Of a stretch of DNA of 64,000 bases, positions 1,800 through 62,522 are shown in pieces. The stretch lies in IMG/VR virus record IMGVR_UViG_3300014501_000017, positions 323-64,322 of that record; one strand, given 5' to 3'. The stretch comes from a virus. Lineage: Duplodnaviria > Caudoviricetes. The first letter of the stretch is position 1. Every line of letters begins with the position of its first letter. A program made the position numbers and the translations under genes. The notes below the pieces were generated by a model. The model saw nothing but the letters and a program-made list of their open reading frames with translations. It was not told the DNA's origin and searched no databases.

Positions 1800-4700
1800 A
1801 TGTTTGAAGTTTCGCAAAATACTATCTCTCTATTCGTTGAGGATCAGTTTCCAGAGTTTTATTCAATTCAGGGACCGAACTTCATCCAATTTATGGAGAA
1901 TTATTACCAGTGGTTAGAAACTACTGGAAATCCTGATTGGTTCTTTGAAAATGCAAGTAATTTAAGAGATATTGACAAGACTCTTCCTTCATACATCATC
2001 CATTTTAAAGAAAAATATCTTCATGATATTCAGTATGCTACAATAGCAAATCAAGTAACATTTATCAAGAATGCTCTAGATTTCTATCGTTCAAAAGGAA
2101 ATTTCCAATCAGTTGATTTATTCTTCCAATTAGTATACGGCGAAGACGCTGATATTTTCTATCCAAAAAATTATATGTTAAGAGTATCTGATGGACAGTG
2201 GGTAATTCCTACTTATCTTGAAGTATCCGACTCTCCACTTAACCTTTCATATATCAACAAACAAATAGCTGGTGTTCACTCAGGAGCAACTGCTTTCGTA
2301 GAACGTTTTGTTAAAAAGAAGATAGGAACCAAGACAGTAAATGTATTCTTTGTTTCTAACTTAGTTGGTAACTTTCAAACTGGAGAATTATTATCTGCCG
2401 GTGGAGTTATTCAAGATATTGCACCATATATGGTTGGTTCATTAACAACCTTGGATATCATAGAAAGTGATCCAGGATTCGAAATAGGTCAAGTAGTTAA
2501 TCTTATCGACCAATATAATGAAATCAATGGATCAGCTATTGTTTCTGATGTAACAACCCAAAGCGGATTAGTAAATTTTGATTTAATCAATGGTGGTTAT
2601 GGATTCAATACAAATTCAATCGTTTCTATTTCCGAGAATGTATTATTTTTAAGCAATGTAATGGTATCTAATACCGAATTAGAATTTCCATTTCTTTATT
2701 TTGAACAGGTATACCAGAAATCAACCAATACCACAGCTAATGTTATAGGACTAGCCGTTCCCAATAATATCAACTTAGCTATTGGTGAAGTTAACCCACT
2801 CGATTTTAATTGGGTTGTTGGTAATGAAATATATCAAGGAAACACATCTGGAATCATAACAACAGTTAGTTATGCAACTGTTAGTTCTGTTTATACTGCG
2901 TTTATACTTGCAACAAGTGTTACAGGTGGAATATTTGAAACAACTGAAGATATTTTTAGTAATAATGGTGCATATGGACTTCTAAACTCATTTAATATGA
3001 GTATTGGAGTTATCTCAATTTCTAATACCTTCTTGGCATCTAATTCATGGGCAAACAGCCTATTGGTTGGTCTAACATCAAATACTACTGCCGCAATTAA
3101 TTCAATTTCTCAAGGAACTGGAGCATCATTCTCTATTGGATTAATTGATAATCTTGAAAACTTTACCATTTCAGCAGATTTTTTGAATGGTTATGATGTA
3201 GCTAATATTCCTTATTTGGACGTTCAATTGGATGGAGCAAATTCAGGAATGTTCATTAACTCTTATGGATTTGTAAGAAATCCATTAGCTAACCTTTCTT
3301 CTCTATTGATTGAGACTTTTGGTGGAGTAACAATCACCGACAATATTGGAACAATAGAGACAATAACTAATATCAACCCAGGATCTGGATATAATACACC
3401 TCCATTCGTTTTGATATATGACCCATTGACTTCACAGGCCCAGTTACATGATTATATCATTGATATTAATACTCTTACATTAAATTTCATTCCAAATGAA
3501 ATAGTAACACAGGGAGTAGTTATATCAAATAGTACTACAATAGTAGTATCCGGTGCCCAAGCAACTATTGGGAACTTTGCCATAGTTAATCGTGGAACAG
3601 GATATACAAACGGAGATTTAGCAACTGCTGCTTCATTAGGAGTAAACGGAGTAGCTAATATAACAACATTTTCAAATGGAACTATTGATTATCTATTACC
3701 AGTAAACTATGGAACTGATTTTACTCCAAGTAGTAACAATATAACAGCACTTTCAAATGCAACTGGTGGTACATCTACAGGAAGCGGAGCAAATGTAATT
3801 GCAGTAGGAGCAACATTCCTATTAGGTGATTTTGTTTATGAATCAAATGGAACAGCAAATATAGCTACAGGAACAGTTCAAGCTACTGATTTGGTACTTG
3901 GTAATGGTATTCTATATGTTAATAATGTAACTGGTGTATTTACTACTGCCTTTGGAATTGCAGCATTTGCCTCAAATACTACTGCAACCATTTCTTCTGT
4001 TAATACTTCAGACTTTACTGTAAGTGCAAGAGGATATATCAAACCAACTTCTAATACTAGTGTATTATATGTTGGAAGATTATCTTATGATACTTCTTTT
4101 GTATCAGATGAACCAATAATTGGTTCTGTTTCTGCCGCCACAGCTAATGTGGTTACAGTTGTTAGTGATCCTACATCAAATATCGTCGGATGGAATGCAA
4201 CTGTTGCTGATTTAGTTGCAACTGGAACTGGAATAGTAACAGAATTGCTTGTAACATCTTCTGGATTTGGATATTCAAATGGAGATACTATTACTTTTGA
4301 GCCTGCTGATAGTTCATTAAATGGAACAGCAACTGTAATTCTTGGCCGTCAAGGAACTGGTGGTGGATACTATCAAGGAACCGGTGGATTCTTAGATAAT
4401 GATCAGGTTATTCAAGATAGTTATTACTGGCAGACATTCTCTTATGAAGTAAGAACAAGTGTTCCATTTGATACATATGAAGATATTTTTACAAGAGTAA
4501 TTCATCCAGCAGGAACTAAGTTATTTGGTGGAGTTTATTTAATTTCAAATTCTGCCTTGGATATAATAGCTGAACCACTTGATACTATCTACTCAATGTA
4601 TGTAACCAGTAATGGAAATGTAGAAGAGTTCTTTCATCCAGGAGATATTATAACTCAAGGTGATGCTAATGGTACAGTAGATGATACTCATGCAGTAATC

Positions 4701-5819
4701 AATATTCAAATATTAAGTGAAAGTAATTATCTAGGCGATGAAACTGTTGATATTCTAGTGACAGAAGCAAATGTTATGTTGCTTGATGAACAACAGCCAC
4801 CAGATGCTAATGCAGCTATTGAACCATTTATTAATACTGAAGTTATTCAATATTTTCCAAATACACTATTTGTTGTTGCAATGGGAACCATAACTGCTGC
4901 TGTTGTAAATGGCGCATCAGAAACAATGTATATAAGTAATACTCAAGGAATTTTCTTAAGTACTATAGACTCACAGGCAGCAAATATCAATGTTATTACT
5001 TCATTGAATCTTAGTTATGAATTATTGCAACAGTTTTCTTTGATTACTGTTATAAATCCAGAAGAAACAACTGAGTCATTTGCTCTTGGAGAAACTGTTA
5101 CAGATTCAACTACAAGTTCAACCGCAGTTGTTCTATTTTCTAATGCGAGTGCCGTACAACTTGGTACTATTTCAGGGGCATTTAATACCGGTGATATTTT
5201 GATTGGGGCAACTTCAAATGCACGAGCAACTATAAGTAACACAGCTTTTAATACAGTTCAAACTTTTACTGCTAATACACCAGTATGGCAAGAAGTATTT
5301 GTAATAAATTTACAAAACATCACAGGAACATTCAATATTGGAGATACAGTTTATCAGTCTAGACAAAATTATAACTCACAAAATGCAGTAACTGAAAATA
5401 CTGTAGTTGGGTTTATCAGCAGTCTAAACACAGTTTCCATGTCAGTAATAAGTCCTCTTGGTTCATTTACTAATAGTTCATTAATTATTGATGCTAATAG
5501 TAGTGCTACCGCCATAATCAATGGAGTAAGAACAGCAAACATTGTTACAGCTAATGTATTGTTAGCAAATTCAAGTATCCTACAAGTTAATGATGTAAAG
5601 GGTGTATTTAATTTAAATCAGTTTATATATGGACCAAGTGTATTTGCTACTATTTCTGCCCAATCAACTATTATTACTTCATTACAGGTAAATACAGCCC
5701 TAAATACTATTGATTTTGCACTAAATGATGGATGGTTTGAAGCAAATAGCACCCAAGTAATGGATTCAAACTCAGGAGCAATAGCCAATATTATTGGGAT
5801 CGCAATATCTGGAGAATAA
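1800..5819 (+). CDS. gp7: Baseplate wedge protein gp7-like
   Basis: N-terminal QFPEFY...FIQFMENYYQWLE, FYRSKG..SV.LFFQLVYG; later IQDSYYWQTFSYEV...IHPAGTKLFG; lies between gp6 and gp8. Confidence 0.85.
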   Translation: MFEVSQNTISLFVEDQFPEFYSIQGPNFIQFMENYYQWLETTGNPDWFFENASNLRDIDKTLPSYIIHFKEKYLHDIQYATIANQVTFIKNALDFYRSKGNFQSVDLFFQLVYGEDADIFYPKNYMLRVSDGQWVIPTYLEVSDSPLNLSYINKQIAGVHSGATAFVERFVKKKIGTKTVNVFFVSNLVGNFQTGELLSAGGVIQDIAPYMVGSLTTLDIIESDPGFEIGQVVNLIDQYNEINGSAIVSDVTTQSGLVNFDLINGGYGFNTNSIVSISENVLFLSNVMVSNTELEFPFLYFEQVYQKSTNTTANVIGLAVPNNINLAIGEVNPLDFNWVVGNEIYQGNTSGIITTVSYATVSSVYTAFILATSVTGGIFETTEDIFSNNGAYGLLNSFNMSIGVISISNTFLASNSWANSLLVGLTSNTTAAINSISQGTGASFSIGLIDNLENFTISADFLNGYDVANIPYLDVQLDGANSGMFINSYGFVRNPLANLSSLLIETFGGVTITDNIGTIETITNINPGSGYNTPPFVLIYDPLTSQAQLHDYIIDINTLTLNFIPNEIVTQGVVISNSTTIVVSGAQATIGNFAIVNRGTGYTNGDLATAASLGVNGVANITTFSNGTIDYLLPVNYGTDFTPSSNNITALSNATGGTSTGSGANVIAVGATFLLGDFVYESNGTANIATGTVQATDLVLGNGILYVNNVTGVFTTAFGIAAFASNTTATISSVNTSDFTVSARGYIKPTSNTSVLYVGRLSYDTSFVSDEPIIGSVSAATANVVTVVSDPTSNIVGWNATVADLVATGTGIVTELLVTSSGFGYSNGDTITFEPADSSLNGTATVILGRQGTGGGYYQGTGGFLDNDQVIQDSYYWQTFSYEVRTSVPFDTYEDIFTRVIHPAGTKLFGGVYLISNSALDIIAEPLDTIYSMYVTSNGNVEEFFHPGDIITQGDANGTVDDTHAVINIQILSESNYLGDETVDILVTEANVMLLDEQQPPDANAAIEPFINTEVIQYFPNTLFVVAMGTITAAVVNGASETMYISNTQGIFLSTIDSQAANINVITSLNLSYELLQQFSLITVINPEETTESFALGETVTDSTTSSTAVVLFSNASAVQLGTISGAFNTGDILIGATSNARATISNTAFNTVQTFTANTPVWQEVFVINLQNITGTFNIGDTVYQSRQNYNSQNAVTENTVVGFISSLNTVSMSVISPLGSFTNSSLIIDANSSATAIINGVRTANIVTANVLLANSSILQVNDVKGVFNLNQFIYGPSVFATISAQSTIITSLQVNTALNTIDFALNDGWFEANSTQVMDSNSGAIANIIGIAISGE

Positions 5820-7883
5820 ATGTCAAGTACTGAATTAATAACAGAACGTCTAAGAGCATCAATTGTATTTGATACATATTCTGAAGTTGTTAATAATGAC
5901 ATTATTCTTTATGTATTTGGCTCAAGAAGCATTCCTTATGCTGCCAACGATACAGCTATAATTCAATCAACCGATTCTGAACATGATCTAGTTGTAGATG
6001 CTTATCAAAATATGCTTTTTGGTAAGATAGTTACTCCAACAGATATCGTACCGATGATTCCTCGATATGATTGGGTATCCAATACTGTTTATGCCATGTA
6101 TTCTGATACAGATATTAATTTATATACAGAAAATTTTTATGCTGTAGTAAATGCTACATCTCAATATGATGTATTCGAATGTATTTTCAATAACTATGGA
6201 GTTCAATCAACTTATCAACCAACTCTAAGTGATACTAGCCCAAGTGAACCTTACTATGAAACTGCTGATGGATATTTCTGGAAATATCTATATTCAATTC
6301 CTATTTTAAGTTTTACCCAATTTGCTACTTCAGAATTTATTCCTCTATTACCTAATATAGCAGTAGCCGACGCTGCTGTTGATGGGGCAATAGATGTTGT
6401 CCTTATTGCCAATAATCAATTTGGTCAATTAGAAGCTGGTTCAGGATATAACAATTATCTTGAAGGTCAATGGATTTCATCAGATATTCAGGTGGCAGGA
6501 AACTCTGTTCTTTATGGAGTATCAAATACAGCATCTAATGTAAATGGATTTTATTCAAGCTGTATGCTTTATATTAACGGTGGAACAGGCCAAGGACAAT
6601 TTGTCCAGATTACAGATTATAAAATAACAGCTAATATTAAACAAATAACTATAGCATCTCCTTTTGGTATCCTTCCAGATATTACATCAAGTTATCAGAT
6701 TTATCCATGGGTAGATATTGTTGGAGATCAGCATGTAACAGTTAATGCATATGCAAGAGCATTAATTAATACTTTTTCTTCAAATAGCATATATCAAATT
6801 GATGTTATTCAGCGTGGTGCAGGATATAGAAGTGGTAGTGCAACTGTATTAGCAGACCCATCTGTTACTGTATCAAATTCTGCTATATTAAATGTTATTA
6901 TCTCTCCACCAAATGGACATGGAGCAAATGTTTATATTGAGTTAGGAGCAACAAATCTTGGAATTGGTCTTACATTTGCAAATAATGAAAATAGTACAAT
7001 TTCAACTGGAAATGAATATAGAACAGTTGGTCTTCTTCAAAATCCTCTATTTGCCAATGTTCAACTTAATTTAAATACTTCAGCCGAAACTGCTGGAACT
7101 AATGGAATATTCATCATCGGTGAAACCATTGTAGAGTTTACTCCTATAATCCTATCTGGAACAGTTGATGTAACAGCAGGAGAGACTGTTGTAGTGGGAA
7201 CCGCTACAGACTTTGAAAATCAATTTGCTTTTAGCAATAACATCTATATTAATGGCGGAACAGTTGTATATGTAGGAACTGTTGCTTCAATAACAAATGC
7301 AACTTATCTAACACTATCTGCTAATTGTCCATTCTCAAATACAGTAGCTAATGTGGCCCTTGTAAATCTAGGGTCTAATGGAATAATAACTTCTGTAACA
7401 TCAAATACTATCAATATTACAAATGCATCTCCTACATTTGAAATAGGAAATACAATAATTGGTCTTTCATCATTTGCCACTGCTATTATAGCTGGATATA
7501 CCATCAATGATTTGAATAAAACTTTCAGCACATTTATTCAAACAAATAGATATATTGGTGATGTAACTAGTGGAATTTTTGTTGATAGTGAATGGGTATA
7601 TACAGGAAATATTACTCAGGCCAATGCCTCTTTCTATGCTCTATTTACTGCTGGTGATGAAGCCAACGGCCAGATTAGTATGTTAGTTTCAAATCAGGTA
7701 GGTTCATTTATTCCTAATACAGTTATCCAAGGAAACAGCAGCGGATCATTATTTAATATAATTTCAGCTTTTCCAGGAGACTTAGTTCCTGATAGTGGAG
7801 AGATTTTATATCTAGAAAACAACTTGGCAATTCCAAGATCAAACTCCCAATCTGAAATAGTTAAAATTATAATCGAGTTATAA
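5820..7883 (+). CDS. gp8: Baseplate wedge protein gp8-like
   Basis: IPRYDW..NTVY.MY, YDVFECIFNN, TADGYFWKYLYSI, ISPPNGHG, C-terminal SGEILYLEN..IPR..Q.E.VKIIIEL. Confidence 0.88.
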   Translation: MSSTELITERLRASIVFDTYSEVVNNDIILYVFGSRSIPYAANDTAIIQSTDSEHDLVVDAYQNMLFGKIVTPTDIVPMIPRYDWVSNTVYAMYSDTDINLYTENFYAVVNATSQYDVFECIFNNYGVQSTYQPTLSDTSPSEPYYETADGYFWKYLYSIPILSFTQFATSEFIPLLPNIAVADAAVDGAIDVVLIANNQFGQLEAGSGYNNYLEGQWISSDIQVAGNSVLYGVSNTASNVNGFYSSCMLYINGGTGQGQFVQITDYKITANIKQITIASPFGILPDITSSYQIYPWVDIVGDQHVTVNAYARALINTFSSNSIYQIDVIQRGAGYRSGSATVLADPSVTVSNSAILNVIISPPNGHGANVYIELGATNLGIGLTFANNENSTISTGNEYRTVGLLQNPLFANVQLNLNTSAETAGTNGIFIIGETIVEFTPIILSGTVDVTAGETVVVGTATDFENQFAFSNNIYINGGTVVYVGTVASITNATYLTLSANCPFSNTVANVALVNLGSNGIITSVTSNTINITNASPTFEIGNTIIGLSSFATAIIAGYTINDLNKTFSTFIQTNRYIGDVTSGIFVDSEWVYTGNITQANASFYALFTAGDEANGQISMLVSNQVGSFIPNTVIQGNSSGSLFNIISAFPGDLVPDSGEILYLENNLAIPRSNSQSEIVKIIIEL

Positions 7884-7914
7884 AAAATAGCTAAATATTG
7901 CTATAGGATAAAAG

Positions 7915-10900
7915 ATGCCCCTTCAAATAAATCTAGATACACCACCATATTTCGATGATTTTAGTCCTTCAAAGGATTACTATAAGATTCTTTTTAAACC
8001 TGCTGTAGCAGTACAGGCTCGTGAGTTAAATCAACTTCAGACAATGCTTCAGAACCAAATTGAACAGTTTGGTGATAACATCTATGTATCCGGAACAATT
8101 ATTCAGGGATGTAACTTCATATTTTATGATAACTATCCATATATCAAAATTAACGATAATGATGTAAATGGAAACAACATCAGCGTTGCTGAATTTGTTG
8201 GTCTTAATGTAGTAGACTCATCAAACTTGGTTGCCTTGATTGTTGATTCAGAAGCTGGTTTTCAATCACAAGACCCAAATCTAAATACTCTTTATTTAAA
8301 ATATATCAATTCTGGAATATCCGGAACTAATACAGCCTATACAACAGCAGAAACTCTTACTGTTTATAATGCAAATAACATTGTCGAATATGTAAAGGTT
8401 TCAAACGGTGGAAGTGAATTTGTAAACACCAACTTCGTTGTTTTTGCATCTGCTTTGGCTATTACCAATACCTCTGGTGGACTAACTTTCGCCAATGGTT
8501 CAAGTGGTTCAAATGTATTTAATATTGGTGACACAATCAATTATGTTGGAGTAGCAAATGTTCGTTCAACTATTGTATCAATCAATTCAACATCTAATTC
8601 AACTGCCTTAATATTAACAGTTGCTCCAGTATTAGCCGATTTAGAAGCAGCAAATTCAAACCCAATTAACTGGACATTTACTGTTAATACAAATCCTCAT
8701 GAATTAACAACCAATACAGCATTTACAATTGCAGCAGTAATTGGACAGGGTGCAGGAGCATCACTTGTTACTGATGGATTTGGAACAATAAAGAATATCA
8801 ATATAACAGCCGGTGGTTCTGGATATTATGTTCCACCATATGTTACTATTTCATCTACAGTCGGAGCAATTTCTGCTGCCAATTTGATTGCCCAGACATT
8901 CCTAACTCAATTTCAAATTGCCTCTGTATCTAATGCTATAGGAACAGGATATGCATTTGGTATTAGTAGTGGAGTAATATATCAAAAAGGATATTTTTCT
9001 CTAGTTAATGCTGAGACAATCATTGTTGACAAATATAGTAATACACCAGATCAATTAGTAGTAGGATTCAATACCCAAGAAGCAATCATCAATAGCAATC
9101 AAGACCCATCACTTCTTGATAATGCTGCTGGAACACCAAATTTTGCTGCTCCGGGAGCAGATAGATTAAAGTTAACACCAACATTGCAGGTACAAGCTGC
9201 AAATGTTGCTTCATCAAATGGATTATTCTTTCCAATTGTAGCATGGAATGGCGGACTTCCTTACAAACAAAATCAACAGACTCAATTTAATACTGTAGAA
9301 GCATTACTTGCTAATGATGTTTACAATACAGCAGGAAATTTCGTTCTTGATCCATTTTTAATTACAACAGAATCTGCACCAACTCTAACTGATGAATTAA
9401 CTCAATTTGAAGTATATGTTGATCCAGGCACAGCATTTATAGATGGTTATGAAGTTAACATTGTAACTCCATTTTCAGTAGTAAACGAAAAAGCAAATAC
9501 TACCCAGATATTGAATCCTGATAATATCAGTATCAATTATGGTAATTATGTCATAGTTAATAATCTTGGTGGAACATTCGAGTTTCAACAGGCTGCACAG
9601 GTATTTTTATATAATTCACCAAGTAATTATCTTTCAAATACAGAAGCATGGACAGCAACTCCTGCTCCAAATACTAGTGGGCTTGGTTATCTTGGAACAG
9701 CAAGAATTCGTTCAATAACATATAATAGCATAAACACCGGCGCAGGAGCGAACGGTGGACCTTTATATAGAATGTATTTGTTTGATATCAAAATGGCTAA
9801 TGGAGCAAATTTTGGAGAAGTTGGATCAATCTATGCAAATAATTCCGGAGCATTCACTGGTATTGCTGATGTAGTTCAGACAAATAATGTAACGATTCTT
9901 CAAGAAACAGGAAGCAATGATGCTATCATATTCCCTATTGGAACAATAGCTACTGAATCTGTATCAAATATTCAATATGCCTATCGTGCAACTTCTACAT
10001 TTCAAGCAAATACAACAGGAAATGTAGTAGCAACATCGGTAGCTGGAGAAGTATTTTTAAATAGTTCTGCCTTATACTTTGAAACAATCCTTGTTCCACA
10101 AGCAAATATTGTATTTGCAAATGCAACTGGAACAATTGCTGTTAATACTTCAACAGTAAATGTAGTTGGTACTACTACAACTTTTACAACAACATTTGCT
10201 GCTGGAGATTATGTAAGTGTAACAAATTCATCTGCATCAGAAGTTAAACTTATTACATCAATTGCAAATGATATTTTCCTAACATTTGATACACCTTGCG
10301 GAATGATAGATGCTTCAGCTAATATAGCCCTAGCTCTACCAGAAAGTATCCCAGTTAATATGTTATCTCATGGTCGTGCTATTAATTTTAATGGCAGTGG
10401 AAACACAATGACAATTAACCTTGGAAATACTCCAAGTGGAACTACAAACTGTTCATTGACCTATACTTCTGTTGTATTGAATGCAACACCTATTTCAAAA
10501 AGTGTAAGTCGTGGAGTAACCGTTACAATTGATTGTACTAACAATATAGCTAATAGTGTTGGACCTTGGTGTCTTGGTGTGCCGGATGTTATTAGATTAA
10601 ACTCAGTTATTATGAATTCTTCATATGCAGGAGTATCAAACTTAAATGTAACATCAAGTTTTAATGTTATTGGTGGACAAACAGAAGATTATGTTGATTT
10701 AGCTCAACTTACATTAACACAACAAGGTTCTAGTCTTTTATTACCGTTTGCTAATTTAACGGTAACATTTGATTGTCTAGTTAAAAACCAAGATGGTGTT
10801 TCTGTAATAACAAGTTATCCAATAAATGATGGACTAGCTTTTGGTAGCTCTCCAGCAACTATAAACACACTTGAAATTCCTGAATTATATGGAGATACAG

Positions 10901-54641: not shown

Positions 54642-55019
54642 ATGATTAAAATTATATCATGGCTTACTCCGACAAAAGCAAAAAACTGGAATCGTAGAAT
54701 ATATAAACAGAAAAATCTTTCTTTTAATCTTGCCAGTTTTACTATTAGTGATAATCCAGTAGAAAGATTTTATGTCTATTCAGATATGGATTCCTTACAT
54801 TCAATTGAAAATATTGTTGGTAAGGTTGGAGTGGTTGATTATAGACCAGATGGTTTATGGATAGATGTTGAATGGATTCCTACACAGACTGGTAAAAATT
54901 GTGTTGAAGGTTTAGAAACTGGATTTTATGGTATAAAACCATTTGGTTATGGTAAATCAGATGCCACTGGTTACGTTACCGAATTTCAATTGAGGGGATT
55001 TGCATTGACTGCTAGATAG
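54642..55019 (+). CDS. Degenerate gp21 prohead-protease-like protein
   Basis: N.N.R.Y, W.D, T..GK, G...G.G, V.EF.L collinear with gp21; the GELGHP and SSR motifs are missing. Confidence 0.55.
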   Translation: MIKIISWLTPTKAKNWNRRIYKQKNLSFNLASFTISDNPVERFYVYSDMDSLHSIENIVGKVGVVDYRPDGLWIDVEWIPTQTGKNCVEGLETGFYGIKPFGYGKSDATGYVTEFQLRGFALTAR

Positions 55020-55034: not shown

Positions 55035-56552
55035 ATGGCTAATTTTTATACTAATGTATGCATGTTGAAAGGAAAGATTCTTGTTAGAGCCATTAAAGAT
55101 GGTAAACGAGTTTCTTATTCAGTTAATTATCGTCCATATCTTTTCATGCCTGCTAAGGGCAAACAAACAAAATTTAAAACAATTCGTGGTGGTTCTGTCG
55201 ATAAGATCGATTTTGAGAATCATTGGGCAATGAAGCAATTCATTGACAGATACAAGGATATTCAGGATTTTGAATATTATGGGATGACGATGCCCATATA
55301 CACCTTCATTAACGATAACACTCCTTCTTCGATTAAATATAATGCCGATGAAATTCGTGTAGTATCACTTGATATTGAAGTAGATACCAAAGATGGGTTT
55401 CCAAATCTCAATCCAGCGGGTGCCTCTTATGGAACCAATTATGCCAATAAAGAAATAACTGTTATTGGTCTTAGAAGCAGAGGAAAAAATCTGGTTTTTG
55501 GAACTAAACCTTATAAAACATCCGATCAAAATACAACATACATGCAGTGTGAGAATGAAGCAGAAATGTTGAAGGATTTCCTTATTGTTTGGAATGATAA
55601 GGATTTCTGGCAACCTGATATTGTAACTGGTTGGAACGTAGGTGGATTTGATATACCATACTTAGTTCGTCGTATTGAAAAGGTAATTGGAGAGAAGTAT
55701 GCTAAGATGTTATCTCCATGGAGAAATTATACATTTAGAGAATATCAGGCCGGATTTGGCCATACCCAGATAGAGTATGACTTGTATGGTATTGCTGTAT
55801 TAGATTATATGGCTCTATACAAGAAGTTTTCTTTTACTCCACAAGAATCTTATAAGCTTGATACTGTAGCTCAATCAGAACTTAAAGAAGGAAAACGTAG
55901 CTATTCCCAATATAAGAATATGCAGGAATTCTATGAGAAAGATTATCAAGGATTTATTGATTATAACATTCAGGATAACGTTCTAGTAGATAAGCTTGAA
56001 GAGAAGAAAGGATTCATTAAACTTGTAATGGCCATGGCCTATGATGCCAAGATTAATTTCAAGGATTGTTTCACTCCTACTCGTGTATGGGATGTTATTA
56101 TCCATAATCATCTTTTTGCACAAGGAATTGTAGTTCCTAGAATGAAAGACCCAGAAGGTGGTTCTATTGAAGGTGCCTACGTTAAGGAACCTATTAAGGG
56201 ATTACATAAGTGGGTAGTATCGTTCGATTTAAATTCACTTTATCCTCATTTGATTCAGATGTATAATATTTCTCCTGAAACTTTTATAGGTAGTACTGAT
56301 CGTAGATTATCAGTTGAAGATGTACTTGATGGAGAATTTAATAATCCAATATACAAGAAGTATTATGATAAGGGTTATACCATAGCTACTCCCGGTCATA
56401 TCTTCGATAAGAAGACTGTAGGGTTCCTTCCTACTATTATGAAGAAAATGTATGATGATAGAGTAGTATGGAAGAAACAGATGATTGAAGAGAAAAAGGA
56501 AATTCAATTAATAGAAGAAGAAATGAAAAAGAGGGGTATAAATATATCATAA
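55035..56552 (+). CDS. gp43: DNA polymerase subunit gp43A (exonuclease + motif A)
   Basis: SLDIE, TGWN...FDIPY, SYKLD.VA, YN..D, GAYVKEP, SFDLNSLYP....YNISPET; ends in a fingers coiled-coil. Confidence 0.95.
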   Translation: MANFYTNVCMLKGKILVRAIKDGKRVSYSVNYRPYLFMPAKGKQTKFKTIRGGSVDKIDFENHWAMKQFIDRYKDIQDFEYYGMTMPIYTFINDNTPSSIKYNADEIRVVSLDIEVDTKDGFPNLNPAGASYGTNYANKEITVIGLRSRGKNLVFGTKPYKTSDQNTTYMQCENEAEMLKDFLIVWNDKDFWQPDIVTGWNVGGFDIPYLVRRIEKVIGEKYAKMLSPWRNYTFREYQAGFGHTQIEYDLYGIAVLDYMALYKKFSFTPQESYKLDTVAQSELKEGKRSYSQYKNMQEFYEKDYQGFIDYNIQDNVLVDKLEEKKGFIKLVMAMAYDAKINFKDCFTPTRVWDVIIHNHLFAQGIVVPRMKDPEGGSIEGAYVKEPIKGLHKWVVSFDLNSLYPHLIQMYNISPETFIGSTDRRLSVEDVLDGEFNNPIYKKYYDKGYTIATPGHIFDKKTVGFLPTIMKKMYDDRVVWKKQMIEEKKEIQLIEEEMKKRGINIS

Positions 56553-56578
56553 ATACTCATTGTATGGAGCAATAGTAT
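56537..56578 (+). promoter_or_regulatory. Late promoter(s) and RBS-sequestering hairpin of the polymerase-embedded endonuclease
   Basis: TATAAATA at 56537-56544 and ATAAATA at 56549-56555; ATACT-C-ATTG...CAAT-AGTAT stem encloses GGAG and reaches the ATG. Confidence 0.65.
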
Positions 56579-57290
56579 GTATTTTATGGTTTATAAAATA
56601 AATAATTTAAAAAATGGTAGATATTATATTGGAGCACACAAGACTGATAATTTAAATGATGGATATATGGGTTCTGGAATTGCAATTAAACGTGCAATAA
56701 AAAAATATGGCAGGAAAAACTTTAGGCGAAAAATAATTAAACAATGCAAGACGGAATTGCAAATGTTTGCTTTTGAAAAAAAGATCATAGAAGAATGTAT
56801 AGATGATAATCCATGTTATAATATTAAACAAGGTGGAATTGGTGGTTGGACTTGGATTAACAAACATAGACATTTATTTAAAAATCCTATGCTTAATCCA
56901 ATAATTGCTAATAAAGTAAGTGTAGCTTTAAAAGAAAAATTTCGTACAGATAATAATTATAGAAAAAAATTACTTAAACATTGTGAAAATTTGGCTAAAA
57001 TGGGGGCTGAATTTAATAAAGGACGAAAGCGCCCATATCATGCTAAATTTATGAAAGAGTGGAGCAAAAATAATTGGAATAAAAATAGAGAAAAAATGAG
57101 AGATTCGTTATCATCATGGTTTAAGGTTGTATCTCCAAAAGGAAAAGTGTATAATACAAATAGATTGGGTGATTTATGTGATAAGTTTGGATTATCTTTT
57201 GTTACAATGTGGTGGGCTAGTAAAAGAAACAAACAAGTGAGTAAAGGAAAAGCAAAAGGTTGGATATGTCAACAGATTATTCAAAATTAA
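56577..57290 (+). mobile_element. GIY-YIG (Seg-like) homing endonuclease splitting gene 43
   Basis: VYKI.N..NGRYYIG.H.T.NL.DGYMGSG.....AIKKYG..NF.R.I, E, CYN...GG.GG. Confidence 0.92.
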
Positions 57291-58399
57291 GTGATAAGGA
57301 GTTAATAGAGCGCCATAAAATCGGAATTAATCAAATTGATTATTGCAAAAATATGCAACATCAATTGAAGATTACTTTAAATTCCGGTTATGGCGCTCTT
57401 TAGCTATGTAATAGATATTTTCGGTGGTTTGACCCAAGACTTGGAGAATCGGTTACCTTGTCTGGTCAGGTTTCTATTCGTTGGATGGAAACGCGGATGA
57501 ATGATTTCTTGAATAGAAGAAACAAGACTACCGGATATGACTATATTATTGCCTGTGATACAGATTCAATGTATCTTAGATTAGGAACTATGATTGAAGG
57601 TGGTTGGTCTGAAAGAGTAGATCAGAAATATAAAAATATGACACCAGATGAAATTACATCTGATATTGATAAAATATGTGAGGAAGAATTCACCCCATTT
57701 ATTGAAAAATCTTATAAAGAATTAGCCGAGTATGTCCATGCCTATAATCAGACAATGATTATGAAGCGTGAGACAATTGCCAATAAGGGTATTTGGACCG
57801 CTGCCAAACATTATGCCTTGAATGCTTATGATATAGAGGGTGTTCGTTATAAAGAACCTGAGCTAAAGATAACTGGTTTGGAGTGTGTTCGTTCTTCTAC
57901 TCCATCGTCCTGTAGAGTTTCTATTAAGGAAGCTATCAAGGTTATCATGAACAAGGAACAGGATGATTTAATTAAATTCATAGAAGAATTCAAGCAAAAG
58001 CATAAAACTCTTCCTATATCAGAGATAGCTTTCCCACGTTCGGTTAATGGTTTGACAAAATGGGCTGATTCTGCTAGTATATACAAGAAAGGAACTCCTA
58101 TTCAAGTAAAGGGATCAATTATTTTCAATAAGTTATTGAAAGAAAAGAATCTTACTAACGAGTATCCTTTAATTGTTGATAGTGAGAAGATAAAATTTGT
58201 TTATCTCAAACTTCCTAATCATATTAAAGATAAGGTAATTGCTTTCAATGGTATTGAACCACCTAAAGAGTTTGATATTGAGCCTTATGTAGACCATGAA
58301 ATAATGCTTAATAAGAGTTTTATAGAGCCTCTTCATAGTATTCTTGATGTAATTGGATGGAAGACTGAGAAGAGAGCGACCTTAGAGGATTTTTTCTAA
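57266..58399 (+). CDS. gp43: DNA polymerase subunit gp43B with in-frame TAG at 57401-57403 (probable recoding)
   Basis: ATG 57266 (AAGGT upstream) reads MSTDYSKLS...KITLNSGYGAL*LCNRYFRWFDPRLGESVTLSGQ in frame with ORF 57458-58399, which holds motif C (CDTDS), KHYAL, GLE.VRSSTP and the TLEDFF clamp-binding tail. Confidence 0.88.
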
Positions 58400-61422: not shown

Positions 61423-61642
61423 TGAATTCTGGGAAAAGGAATGGAAAGATATGCCTGAATTCATTTCAGAAAAACAAGAGGCATATGCCAAAATTATAAT
61501 CCGCTTTGATAATGAAAAAGCACTTCAAGATTTTGCCAAGAAGATAGGTCAGAAGCTTAATAAAAAATCAAAAAGTATCTGGTATCCATTCAAATCTCAT
61601 TGGGGAAAGGAACGGACCTGTTATGTCCAAAATAAATCCTAG
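61400..61642 (+). CDS. Small protein coupled to the TAGT-like gene
   Basis: EW..MPEF........I.IRF......DFA..IGQK....KSIWYP; SD AGGAG; overlaps the next gene. Confidence 0.7.
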   Translation: MLSRKKPNEFWEKEWKDMPEFISEKQEAYAKIIIRFDNEKALQDFAKKIGQKLNKKSKSIWYPFKSHWGKERTCYVQNKS

Positions 61643-62522
61643 ATTTCCTATCTATATTGTTTCAAAGGGACGATGGAATACTAGGTTGACTGCTACGGCT
61701 TTGCAAGAAATGAATGTTCCATTTAAGATGATAGTAGAAGAGACTGAATATAAAGATTATAGTAAAAATATTACACCAAATAATCTTCTTGTTCTTCCGC
61801 AAAAATATTTAGATAATTATGATACCTGTGATGATTTAGGGTCATCTAAGAGTAAAGGTCCTGGTGCTGCAAGAAATTTTGCATGGGATCATGCTATTGA
61901 TGGTGGGTTGGATAGACATTGGGTAATGGATGATAATATTGATGCTTTTCATAGATTAAATCGTAATGAAAAGAGTTTAGTTTATACCGGAGCAATATTT
62001 AAAGCAGCAGAGGATTTTACTCTTCGTTATGATAATGTTCCATTATCGGGGTTTAATTATTATTCGTTTTGTAAATCAACTGATAAAGTTCCGCCTTATT
62101 ATTTGAATACACGTATCTATTCTTGTCTATTAATAAAAAATAACAATATGCCGTATAGATGGCGTGGTCGTTATAATGAAGATACAGACCTTTCTTTACG
62201 AATATTAAAGGATGGATTATGTACGATCCAGTTTAATGCTTTCCTTTGTGGTAAGGTTACTACACAGAGAATGATAGGTGGTAATACAGAAGAGTTTTAT
62301 AAACATGAAGGTACAAAGGCTAAGTCTCAGATGTTGGTTGATATGCATCCTGATGTAGCCCAATTGGTTTGGAAATTTAATCGTTGGCATCATAAGGTTG
62401 ATTATCGACAGTTCAAGAATAATAAATTACAACTAAGAGATAATCTCAAAATACCGAATCGTATCAATAATTATGGAATGGTTTTGACAACAGTGAAAAA
62501 TTCTGGTATACTACCAAGATGA
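61623..62522 (+). CDS. TET-associated (TAGT/GREB1-like) glycosyltransferase, probable DNA-base glycosylation
   Basis: PIYI.SKGR, VE..E...Y, ARNF.WDH, HWVMDDNI, NTRIYSC.LI, WRGRYNEDTDL.LR.LK.G, GGNT. Confidence 0.8.
   Translation: MSKINPRFPIYIVSKGRWNTRLTATALQEMNVPFKMIVEETEYKDYSKNITPNNLLVLPQKYLDNYDTCDDLGSSKSKGPGAARNFAWDHAIDGGLDRHWVMDDNIDAFHRLNRNEKSLVYTGAIFKAAEDFTLRYDNVPLSGFNYYSFCKSTDKVPPYYLNTRIYSCLLIKNNNMPYRWRGRYNEDTDLSLRILKDGLCTIQFNAFLCGKVTTQRMIGGNTEEFYKHEGTKAKSQMLVDMHPDVAQLVWKFNRWHHKVDYRQFKNNKLQLRDNLKIPNRINNYGMVLTTVKNSGILPR
62484..62512 (+). promoter_or_regulatory. sigma70-type promoter of gp41, predicted leaderless
   Basis: TTGACA-N17-TATACT with TG extension; ATG 6 nt downstream at 62519. 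Confidence 0.78.

What the first reader, a model, noticed from the sequence alone, without database searches (positions are those of the whole stretch)
57389..57412. In-frame CTT-TAG-CTA inside the essential DNA polymerase: candidate programmed stop-hop (translational bypass)
Seen: gp43B reads KITLNSGYGAL(CTT)-TAG-L(CTA)-CNRYFRWFDPRLGESVTLSGQ in one frame. Known: T4/RB69 gp43 reads K..INSLYGAL-GN..FRYYDLRNATAIT.FGQ. Deleting exactly TAG+CTA gives a gap-free alignment, while plain readthrough would add 2 residues next to motif B. Both flanks are conserved and all other motifs are intact, which argues against decay. Synonymous Leu codons flanking a stop are the layout of 'stop-hopping' (peptidyl-tRNA takes off and re-pairs downstream). 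As I recall, CUU-UAG-CUA is the textbook E. coli reporter example; this should be verified. It is also a minimal analogue of T4 gene 60 bypassing. A weak hairpin UAUGGC/GCUAUG (57389-57408) puts the take-off codon in its loop. Inference: polymerase output depends on a natural 6-nt hop, possibly as a dosage or host-state control.
Basis: partly seen in the sequence, partly recalled or inferred. Interest (0 to 1): 0.92.

Follow-up and report, generated by a model that had tools for sequence, protein, structure and literature searches.

The report
Conserved stop inside phage DNA polymerase
A T4-like phage from peat carries a six-letter insert with a stop codon in the most conserved part of its DNA polymerase gene, at the edge of a selfish mobile nuclease cassette, and the ribosome most likely has to hop over it, which would be the first natural case of such a hop.

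Summary
CTT-TAG-CTA (57398-57406) lies in frame in the second half of a split T4-type DNA polymerase, right after motif B. An independent peat sample carries the same letters. A relative whose downstream polymerase part is only 69% identical has a 45-residue first ORF that stops at the same codon.

TAG is an ordinary stop elsewhere in the window, ending 9 of 63 ORFs. All 118 one-frame relatives lack the two extra codons.

New here: the insert belongs to a mobile cassette. The cassette is a GIY-YIG homing endonuclease gene, new tails on the two polymerase halves, and a short TAG-bearing insert at motif B. In a sister cassette family (4-nt insert, GGT-TAG-C) the insert marks the right edge of the mobile tract. 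That cassette is 95-98% identical between phages whose polymerase flanks are 63-70% identical.

This parallels T4 mobA plus the gene 60 bypass. My best reading, at about 0.5, is a six-letter stop-hop that restores GYGAL-CNRY. No translation product was seen, so the mechanism is inferred.

The parts
55035..56552 (+). gp43A: the N-terminal, exonuclease and first palm part of a family B DNA polymerase (505 aa). It ends in a tail (about 56487-56549, EEKKEIQLIEEEMKKRGINIS) that unsplit relatives lack.
   Evidence: Pfam DNA_pol_B_exo1 at 3.7e-21 and DNA_pol_B at 7.6e-15. The ORF is listed. Similar tails end gp43A in L125, L127 and L016.
56577..57290 (+). Free-standing GIY-YIG (Seg-like) homing endonuclease gene, 237 aa, lying between the two polymerase halves. 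Its 3' end overlaps the gp43B start by 25 nt.
   Evidence: Pfam SegE_GIY-YIG at 25.6 bits (cut-off 25), and GIY-YIG at 18.2 bits, below its cut-off. PHROG 314 homing endonuclease at 6.6e-35. 50% identical to the endonucleases at the same position in L125 and L127.
57266..57400 (+). First 45 codons of gp43B. They comprise a new N-terminal tail (MSTDYSKLSDKELIERHKIGIN) followed by the native fingers helix with motif B (KITLNSGYGAL). An AAAGG Shine-Dalgarno-like run lies 8 nt upstream of the ATG.
   Evidence: A 45-aa homologue, P0125 (87% identical), ends at the same residue. Related N-terminal tails are in L002, L130 and L131.
57398..57400 (+). CTT (Leu), the proposed take-off codon.
   Evidence: CTT makes up 32% of the window's Leu codons.
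57401..57406 (+). The 6-nt insert TAG-CTA. It is an in-frame amber stop followed by C, then a Leu codon that is the proposed landing codon.
   Evidence: Only 1 of 63 genuine stops in the window is followed by C. It is the only internal stop in a homology-supported gene of the window.
57407..58399 (+). The rest of gp43B: CNRYFRWFDPRLGESVTLSGQ, motif C (DTDS), palm and thumb. It is open for 331 codons to TAA 58397-58399.
   Evidence: 14 of the 15 codons right after the insert encode the same residue as L004, and 11 of those 14 use a different codon. Differences among P0004, P0005 and P0006 avoid conserved columns.
57389..57408 (+). I do not count it as a functional part.
   Evidence: -5.5 kcal/mol, z -0.78, and 43 of 200 shuffles fold as well.

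Best explanation
The six letters TAG-CTA are a conserved component of a mobile homing-endonuclease cassette that has invaded the DNA polymerase gene of this T4-like phage.

The cassette has four parts. It ends the first polymerase half with a new C-terminal tail. It carries a GIY-YIG endonuclease gene. It restarts the polymerase with a new N-terminal tail. About 45 codons further on, it places a short TAG-bearing insert in the DNA that encodes motif B.

By analogy with T4 mobA and the gene 60 coding gap, the insert most likely breaks the endonuclease's own target, so the carrier genome is not cut. This step is inferred and was not tested.

The helix after motif B tolerates no length change, so the insert must be removed at translation. 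With CUU in the P site and the slow UAG-C in the A site, peptidyl-tRNA-Leu would unpair, slide 6 nt and re-pair on CUA. Decoding would resume at UGU. Nine letters would then give one Leu, and the product would be the colinear GYGAL-CNRYFRW polymerase. Ribosomes that terminate would make a useless 45-residue peptide.

Shown here: the sequence, its recurrence, its conservation, its cassette context and the invariant spacing. Inferred: the hop, its efficiency and the immunity function.
For: 1. The stop is real and recurs. An independent run's contig carries it with no gap. The identical 45-aa ORF is on 3 contigs.

2. It is conserved. P0125 (45 aa, 87% identical) ends at the same codon. It sits on a record of the same length (171,647 nt) as P0006, the downstream part, which is 69% identical.

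3. TAG is an ordinary stop for 9 of 63 ORFs, and there is no other internal stop in a gene of the window.

4. The spacing from YG to GQ is 21 in 118 of 118 one-frame relatives. Read-through gives 23 and a hop gives 21. The nearest unsplit relative, L004, has neither endonuclease nor insert and reads GYGVM-CNQY.

5. The downstream part is constrained. 14 of 15 residues after the insert match L004, 11 of them through different codons. Only 1 of 86 columns that are at least 90% conserved differs between P0004 and P0005 (MWU p = 3.7e-5).

6. The cassette context is clear in the sister type with the 4-nt insert GGT-TAG-C. L016 is 100% identical to L018 on both flanks, and its cassette (4530-4912) ends at the insert. 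Between L125 and L127 the endonuclease is 95% nt and the first ORF 98% nt identical, against 63% and 70% nt for the polymerase flanks. The high-identity tract ends about 10 nt after the TAG. Six first-ORF clusters with diverged tails all end at NSAYGALG.

7. The window's endonuclease is 50% identical to those of L125 and L127, so two distant cassette versions both carry a TAG insert at motif B.

8. The internal TAG is followed by C, whereas only 1 of 63 genuine stops is.

9. There is precedent. The T4 MobA element is an endonuclease, C- and N-terminal tails and a bypass insert that blocks self-cleavage, with a take-off codon followed by UAG at codon 46 (Manning & Atkins preprint, section 12 and passages; PMC5009743 passages). 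Stop-hops in which 9 nt specify one residue were shown with synthetic constructs (PMC5009743; 10.1101/2024.12.09.627546).

10. By inference, 8 of the 9 single-base changes of TAG give a sense codon. A tolerated 2-residue insertion should therefore have lost its stop long ago.
Against: No product, reporter or ribosome data exist.

Unstimulated stop-hops in E. coli are described as low-level. No stimulator is evident here: the hairpin is at chance level, and I saw no clear Shine-Dalgarno-like run 5' of CUU.

CUU-U is also a classic +1 shift-prone site (recalled), which would lead to a dead-end frame.

The DNA of the relatives that carry the same stop (P0125/P0006 and P0005) could not be fetched. 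Their flanking codons and stop identity are therefore unknown, and the cassette could have entered each lineage recently.

The sister 4-nt type cannot use a matched-codon hop. GGU would have to land on AGC, or the ribosome would shift +1. A single common mechanism is therefore not established.

The X2 variant has 57468 A>G, which changes CAG to CGG (Q to R) in the near-invariant SGQ motif. That contig's word depth is 5.9. This could hint at relaxed constraint or be an error.

The record is about 36% complete, so a suppressor tRNA or a second polymerase may lie in the unseen part.
Confidence: 0.5

Rival explanations
1. Stop-codon read-through. The UAG is decoded by a phage- or host-encoded amber suppressor or a near-cognate tRNA, giving GYGAL-X-L-CNRY with two extra residues. 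The low yield may be enough, or may be regulatory.
For: The insert is in frame, so read-through needs no frame change. UAG-C is a poor termination context, and only 1 of 63 genuine stops has C at +4. T4-like phages often carry tRNA genes (recalled), and 64% of the genome is unseen.
Against: There is no tRNA gene in the 64-kb window. None of 118 relatives tolerates any length change here. A tolerated insertion would be expected to lose its stop by any of 8 single-base changes, yet the stop is kept in P0125. The sister cassettes carry a 4-nt insert that no suppressor can rescue. A strong suppressor would extend the 9 ORFs that end in TAG.
Confidence: 0.17
2. The allele is defective or decaying. 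The insert inactivates the polymerase, and this genome is a dead end, or is carried by co-infecting relatives or by a second polymerase elsewhere in the genome.
For: The stop sits in an essential gene with no demonstrated rescue. The X2 variant changes the near-invariant Q of SGQ. The L016 cassette is very recent, with flanks 100% identical to L018, so recent insertions prove little about viability. The genome is 36% complete.
Against: 331 codons stay open after the stop in a 35% G+C genome. The same stop is found in a relative that is 69% identical downstream. Differences among the three interrupted lineages avoid conserved columns. The phage was assembled from at least two independent samples. 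A cassette that killed its carrier could not have spread to at least three polymerase backbones or diversified into six first-ORF clusters that keep the stop.
Confidence: 0.12
3. A three-piece polymerase. Translation ends at UAG, and a third polypeptide starts downstream, for example at TTG 57458, which lies 11 nt after a GGAG run. The 45-residue peptide would assemble with the two large fragments.
For: Family B polymerases work when split in the fingers. Natural gp43 fingertip splits are known, and an engineered Pfu split arose by termination-reinitiation (PMC3061061 and PMC2988022 passages). GGAG at 57443-57446 followed by TTG 57458 is a possible start. In the 4-nt sister type, a GTG lies 21 nt before the TAG in the downstream frame.
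Against: The first in-frame start after the TAG would drop 18 residues (LCNRYFRWFDPRLGESVT). Of the 15 codons from CNRY to GES, 14 match L004, 11 of those 14 through different codons. The break would be inside helix P, right after motif B, and not at the variable fingertip where the known splits lie. No start codon lies next to the stop; the ATG at 57406 is out of frame and is followed at once by TAA.
Confidence: 0.08
4. TAG is a sense codon in this phage or its host (an alternative genetic code).
For: Some phages recode TAG (recalled). The frame is open under TAG=X.
Against: 9 of 63 ORFs end in TAG with the next gene starting close by; for example, 54642-55019 is followed by gp43A at 55035. 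No other gene in the window has an internal TAG. The product would carry the 2-residue insertion.
Confidence: 0.02

Closest known systems
T4 MobA element: the mobA homing endonuclease plus the 50-nt gene 60 translational bypass (Bonocora et al. 2011, seen only as a reference and as described in others' passages; Manning & Atkins 2022 preprint, section 12 and passages read)
   Same: An endonuclease gene splits an essential replication gene. New C- and N-terminal tails are added. About 45-46 codons into the downstream ORF, a take-off codon is followed by UAG and a non-coding insert in a highly conserved stretch. The insert travels with the endonuclease as one cassette. Variants exist with a degenerate endonuclease that keep the insert (L016), and split forms exist without an insert (L002, L130).
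   Different: The target is the polymerase (gp43 motif B), not the topoisomerase. The endonuclease is GIY-YIG, not MobA/HNH (the HNH assignment is recalled). The insert is 6 nt (4 nt in the sister type), not 50 nt. There is no take-off stem-loop, no internal Shine-Dalgarno run and no recognisable nascent-peptide signal. Self-protection and bypass are untested here. 'DNA polymerase' occurs 0 times in the preprint's text; its supplements were not seen.
Synthetic 'stop-hops' in E. coli (Weiss, Dunn, Atkins & Gesteland 1987; known to me through PMC5009743 and 10.1101/2024.12.09.627546 passages)
   Same: Two codons readable by one tRNA flank a stop, so that 9 nt would specify one amino acid, with no further signal.
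   Different: Those were reporter constructs with low efficiency. Here the arrangement is natural, conserved and in an essential gene. PMC5009743 states that no natural occurrence is known.
Split gp43 of T4-related Aeromonas/Acinetobacter phages, with seg43(25) in phage 25 (Petrov et al. 2006 and 2010, as described in PMC2988022 and PMC3061061 passages)
   Same: Gene 43 is split in the fingers domain into 43A and 43B. In one case a Seg-type GIY-YIG gene lies between the halves, and the halves co-purify and are active.
   Different: In the passages I read, no internal stop or short insert at motif B is described for those phages. The best cultured-phage match to this endonuclease is 32.5% identical (SegB-like). 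The Petrov papers themselves were not available to me.
RF2 (prfB) and Ty1-type +1 frameshift sites, CUU-UGA-C and CUU-AGG-C (recalled)
   Same: A CUU codon sits before a slow A-site codon followed by C.
   Different: A +1 shift here leads to a non-homologous frame (inspection). Only a +6 move or read-through keeps the polymerase frame.

Membership tests
T4-type family B DNA polymerase (gp43), split form | Exonuclease and polymerase domains with motif A (DxxSLYPS), motif B (KxxxNSxYG) and motif C (DTDS). | tested here: met
   Pfam DNA_pol_B_exo1 and DNA_pol_B on gp43A. SFDLNSLYPH is in gp43A. KITLNSGYG and ACDTDSMY are in gp43B. tblastn matches 2579 phage records annotated as DNA polymerase, the best at 53.8%.
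T4-type family B DNA polymerase (gp43), split form | An uninterrupted reading frame through motif B and helix P. | tested here: not met
   There is one in-frame TAG at 57401 plus one extra codon.
GIY-YIG (Seg-like) free-standing homing endonuclease | A GIY-YIG catalytic domain plus a C-terminal DNA-binding part, encoded as its own ORF between host genes. | tested here: met
   SegE_GIY-YIG at 25.6 bits against a cut-off of 25 (marginal), and PHROG 314 at 6.6e-35. It is its own ORF at 56577-57290. dN/dS is 0.21 between the L125 and L127 homologues.
GIY-YIG (Seg-like) free-standing homing endonuclease | Cleaves the endonuclease-free allele near its insertion site and mobilises itself with flanking DNA. 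| tested here: inconclusive
   Cleavage is not testable with these tools. Mobility is supported indirectly: the cassette is 95-98% nt identical in backbones that are 63-70% identical, and L016 equals L018 plus the cassette.
MobA/gene 60-type endonuclease-plus-bypass cassette | The endonuclease splits an essential gene and adds conserved C- and N-terminal tails. | tested here: met
   The tails are seen in the window, L016, L125, L127, L002 and L130.
MobA/gene 60-type endonuclease-plus-bypass cassette | A non-coding insert that begins with a stop after the take-off codon and is inherited with the endonuclease. | tested here: met
   The TAG insert is at the right edge of the mobile tract. It is present in every cassette examined that has an intact or remnant endonuclease: the window, L016, L123, L124, L125, L126 and L127.
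MobA/gene 60-type endonuclease-plus-bypass cassette | Homology to MobA and to the 50-nt gap with its take-off stem-loop, gap Shine-Dalgarno run and nascent-peptide signal. | tested here: not met
   The endonuclease is GIY-YIG. The insert is 6 nt. No significant structure is present. It works like this family but is not a member of it.
MobA/gene 60-type endonuclease-plus-bypass cassette | The insert protects the carrier DNA from the cassette's endonuclease. | not testable with these tools
   Inferred only, from position and analogy.
Stop-hop (short translational bypass) | Take-off and landing codons readable by one tRNA flank a slow A-site codon. | tested here: met
   CUU-UAG-CUA. That one Leu tRNA reads both CUU and CUA is recalled for E. 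coli and unknown for this host.
Stop-hop (short translational bypass) | The product lacks the stop and one flanking residue (9 nt give one amino acid). | not testable with these tools
   Only the comparative argument is available: a spacing of 21 in 118 of 118 relatives.
Amber suppression or TAG-recoded genome | A suppressor tRNA gene, or TAG used as a sense codon across genes. | tested here: not met
   There are 0 tRNA genes in the window. 9 of 63 ORFs end in TAG. No other internal TAG is present. However, only 36% of the genome is held.

The most novel reading that the evidence does not exclude
This is the first natural 'stop-hop'. A family of GIY-YIG homing-endonuclease cassettes protects itself by placing a minimal 4- or 6-nt TAG-bearing insert in the motif B DNA of phage polymerases. 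It relies on ribosomes to skip the insert: CUU-UAG-CUA decoded as one Leu here, and GGU-UAG-C skipped in the sister type. That would make short translational bypass a recurrent, evolvable solution for mobile elements that invade essential genes, rather than a one-off of T4 gene 60.
Probability: 0.45. Interest if true: 0.9.

Novelty: new variant of a known kind. Interest (0 to 1): 0.8.

Why it matters
Programmed bypass has been known essentially from T4 gene 60 and its homologues, and from yeast mitochondria. The 2016 recoding review states that in-frame stop-hopping was shown only with synthetic constructs and that no natural occurrence is known (PMC5009743).

Here a stop flanked by two Leu codons is conserved in an essential polymerase, in an arrangement that mirrors the mobA/gene 60 cassette. 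If the hop is confirmed, three things follow:
- It gives a minimal natural system for studying take-off and landing without long-range signals.
- It shows that endonuclease cassettes repeatedly solve the self-cleavage problem by recoding.
- It warns annotators that "broken" polymerase genes in phage metagenomes may be intact at the protein level.

It is directly testable with a small reporter and mass spectrometry.

Tried and rejected
Sequencing or assembly error: rejected.

TAG recoding: rejected.

+1 frameshift at CUU-U: rejected, because the +1 frame is non-homologous and closes after about 35 codons (inspection).

Hairpin as a stimulator: rejected as no better than chance. A fold around the 4-nt site of L125 had z -2.2, but its 3' arm is not kept in L016.

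A recombination tract between the window and L004 just upstream of the TAG: the local counts of synonymous change (5 of 13 upstream, 11 of 14 downstream) lie within the scatter along the gene, so I make no claim.

Close relatives' DNA: megablast against phages found nothing. The exact 42-mer and a degenerate window-type pattern in viral contigs found nothing real; L122 is a chance hit. The search for related loci with the window protein found none. The contigs of P0005, P0006 and P0125 could not be fetched.

RNA: run X7 has two 151-nt contigs on gp43A only (55709-56033). This shows nothing about the site and does not prove transcription. Runs X4 and X5 do not cover the site.

tRNA scan of L004, L016 and L123-L127: only tRNA-Asn and tRNA-Asp, and no suppressor.

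Literature: searches found no paper on a stop or bypass in phage polymerase motif B, nor the triplets CUU UAG CUA. Searches gave the background papers cited. Supplements are closed and were not requested. Table S2 and the files of the Manning & Atkins preprint could bear on whether any polymerase cassette was seen there.

Full report
WHAT IS THERE

The window is a 64-kb, 34.8% G+C, all-plus-strand piece of a T4-like myovirus. It carries baseplate wedge, UvsX, gp41-type helicase and glucosyltransferase genes. The source is an IMG/VR record estimated to be 36% complete. Runs that hold the sequence are peat and permafrost metagenomes.

The DNA polymerase is split. gp43A runs from 55035 to 56552 (505 aa). 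A 237-aa GIY-YIG Seg-like homing endonuclease gene follows at 56577-57290. gp43B starts at ATG 57266, overlapping the endonuclease's end.

In gp43B the frame reads KITLNSGYGAL(CTT 57398)-TAG(57401)-L(CTA 57404)-CNRYFRWFDPRLGESVTLSGQ. It then stays open for 331 codons to TAA 58397-58399.

IS IT REAL, AND MORE THAN CHANCE?

Run X2 is an independent peat run from another study. One of its contigs, 445 nt long, covers 57305-57749 with no gap and one other letter, at 57468.

In the large protein collection, the identical 45-residue first ORF (P0124) is on 3 contigs. A second version, P0125 (87% identical), is also exactly 45 residues and ends in GYGVL. It is on 2 contigs, the longest 171,647 nt. 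That is the same length as the record bearing P0006, a downstream polymerase part only 69% identical to the window's. P0005 (87% identical), P0006 and the window's own P0004 are all called from the same internal Met. This is what an upstream interruption produces.

Their stop and flanking codons are therefore unknown.

TAG is a normal terminator here. It ends 9 of 63 ORFs, and 57401 is the only internal stop in a homology-supported gene. No tRNA gene is in the window.

COMPARISON WITH RELATIVES

I collected 129 loci with T4-type polymerase C-terminal halves. In 118 of them motif B and the SGQ motif lie in one frame. All 118 (47 distinct peptides) have exactly 21 residues between YG and GQ. The window read through has 23. 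The 11 others are six loci with a 4-nt insert (described below), four cut by a contig end and one chance hit.

The nearest unsplit relative is L004 (70% identical). It has no endonuclease and no insert, and reads GYGVM-CNQYFRWFDPRLGESVTLSGQ. The window therefore carries exactly two extra codons, and the Cys after the insert is native to this clade.

Right after the insert, 14 of 15 residues equal those of L004, and 11 of them are encoded by different codons. Differences among P0004, P0005 and P0006 avoid conserved positions. Of 86 columns that are at least 90% conserved in 93 background sequences, only 1 differs between P0004 and P0005, against 37 of 293 columns overall (Mann-Whitney p = 3.7e-5).

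The downstream part is therefore under purifying selection in the interrupted lineages. One caveat applies: the time at which each lineage acquired the insert is unknown.

THE CASSETTE

Locus L016 led to a sister form. After YGALG it has GGT-TAG-C-AAC, a 4-nt insert with the same TAG-C.

L016 is 100% identical to L018-L020 on both sides. Between positions 4530 and 4912 it carries the following, in order: a new end of gp43A; a remnant resembling the C-terminal part of the window's endonuclease (by eye); and a 44-codon first ORF with a new N-terminal tail that ends YGALG-TAG. The right edge of the foreign tract is at the insert. L018 has an unsplit 835-aa polymerase.

A pattern search found the same junction in L123 and L126 (like L016) and in L124/L125 and L127. 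L125 and L127 have an intact endonuclease between gp43A and the first ORF, and L124 holds its partial copy at a contig end.

Between L125 and L127 the endonuclease is 95% nt identical (dN/dS 0.21) and the first ORF 98% nt identical. Their gp43A is only 63% and their downstream part only 70% nt identical. The high-identity tract (7037-7987) ends about 10 nt after the TAG at 7976.

Six first-ORF clusters from three data sources have tails that differ (70-98% identity), yet all end at NSAYGALG. Three proteins of the collection (P0010, P0046 and P0071) begin MLTALLVSN. By back-translation, this is the other-frame reading of the same junction (inference).

The window's endonuclease is 50% identical to those of L125 and L127, and its tails resemble theirs. 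Split forms that have the tails but no insert also exist: L002 (Synechococcus phage ACG-2014f), L130 and L131.

The TAG-bearing insert is thus a conserved right-end component of a mobile endonuclease cassette aimed at gp43. It comes in two versions, of 6 nt and of 4 nt.

HOW IT MOST LIKELY WORKS

This anatomy matches the T4 MobA element as described by Manning and Atkins (preprint section 12 and passages) and by the 2016 review (passages). In that element:
- an endonuclease splits a replication gene and adds C- and N-terminal tails;
- a non-coding insert lies 46 codons into the downstream ORF and begins with UAG after the take-off codon;
- the insert blocks cleavage of the carrier by its own endonuclease;
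- the endonuclease decays first and the bypass later.

By analogy, I infer that TAG-CTA disrupts the endonuclease's target in the motif B DNA. This was not tested.

At the protein level the only colinear product comes from a 6-nt hop. Peptidyl-tRNA-Leu leaves CUU while the slow UAG-C occupies the A site, re-pairs on CUA, and decoding resumes at UGU.

Three indirect arguments favour this over read-through:
- The spacing is invariant.
- A stop is retained, although 8 of the 9 single-base changes of TAG would give a sense codon (inference).
- The 4-nt sister insert cannot be rescued by any suppressor.

The C after the stop fits a weak terminator, since only 1 of 63 genuine stops in the window has C there.

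WHAT SPEAKS AGAINST THE HOP

- Stop-hops without stimulators are described as low-level.
- I found no stimulator.
- The 4-nt type has no matched landing codon. GGU would land on AGC, or the ribosome would shift +1, or translation would restart at a GTG 21 nt upstream. A common mechanism is therefore not shown.
- The X2 variant changes the near-invariant Q of SGQ to R, in one contig of word depth 5.9.
- 64% of the genome is unseen, so a suppressor tRNA or a second polymerase is not excluded.

Rivals and their weights are given in the Rival explanations section.

WHAT IS KNOWN AND WHAT IS NEW

Split gp43 genes, one with a Seg-type endonuclease (phage 25), are known and active (passages of PMC2988022 and PMC3061061). 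The endonuclease-plus-bypass cassette is known for the topoisomerase. Stop-hops are known from synthetic constructs, and the review states that no natural occurrence is known.

I found no paper describing a stop or short insert at motif B of a phage polymerase. The preprint's text never mentions DNA polymerase, and its supplements were not seen. The best cultured-phage match to the endonuclease is 32.5% identical, so no isolate is at hand.

My cassette comparisons support that idea in part.

VERDICT

The stop is conserved, tied to the cassette and most simply explained by a 6-nt stop-hop (confidence 0.5). No product has been seen, and the suggested dosage-control role has no support. I class it as a new variant of a known kind, with interest 0.8.

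Noticed in passing
L016:4530-4912; L125 (reverse strand; oriented 7037-7987); L127; L123; L124; L126: A sister cassette in freshwater and other phage contigs. It has the same layout (gp43A tail, GIY-YIG gene or its remnant, 44-47-codon first ORF) but a 4-nt insert, GGT-TAG-C-AAC, after YGALG. Rescue would need a +4 bypass, a +1 shift or a restart at a GTG 21 nt upstream. Six first-ORF clusters (P0126-P0131) keep the stop.
   Followed up: partly
L002:1088-4104 (Synechococcus phage ACG-2014f); L130; L131: Split gp43 with a related N-terminal tail (SDYSKLSDKQLI / MSEDYSKLTDNQLI) but no stop at motif B. In L002, two small ORFs take the place of the endonuclease. This looks like a later stage of cassette decay. 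GenBank annotates the L002 gp43B from a start downstream of motif B.
   Followed up: partly
L016:2165-2977 (minus strand): A second homing-endonuclease-like gene (two NUMOD3 motifs, 270 aa) lies just upstream of gp43 in L016. It is absent from the otherwise near-identical L018.
   Followed up: no
window 57468: In run X2 the contig reads G instead of A, changing CAG to CGG (Q to R) in the near-invariant SGQ motif of the polymerase. The contig's word depth is 5.9, so this is either an error or a real variant at a conserved residue.
   Followed up: no
window, all 63 ORF ends: Genuine stop codons are almost never followed by C (1 of 63; T 29, A 22, G 11), whereas the internal TAG is followed by C.
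   Followed up: partly
window 57443-57460: A GGAG run 11 nt before an in-frame TTG (57458) could serve as an internal start for a C-terminal polymerase fragment. L004 has GGTGAG and CTA at the same places.
   Followed up: partly
window 61623-62522: An ORF matching the PHROG 'beta-glucosyl-HMC-alpha-glucosyltransferase' (2e-50) hints at glucosylated hydroxymethyl-cytosine DNA in this peat phage.
   Followed up: no
window 55709-56033: Two 151-nt contigs of a peat metatranscriptome run (X7) match gp43A exactly. DNA carry-over is not excluded.
   Followed up: no
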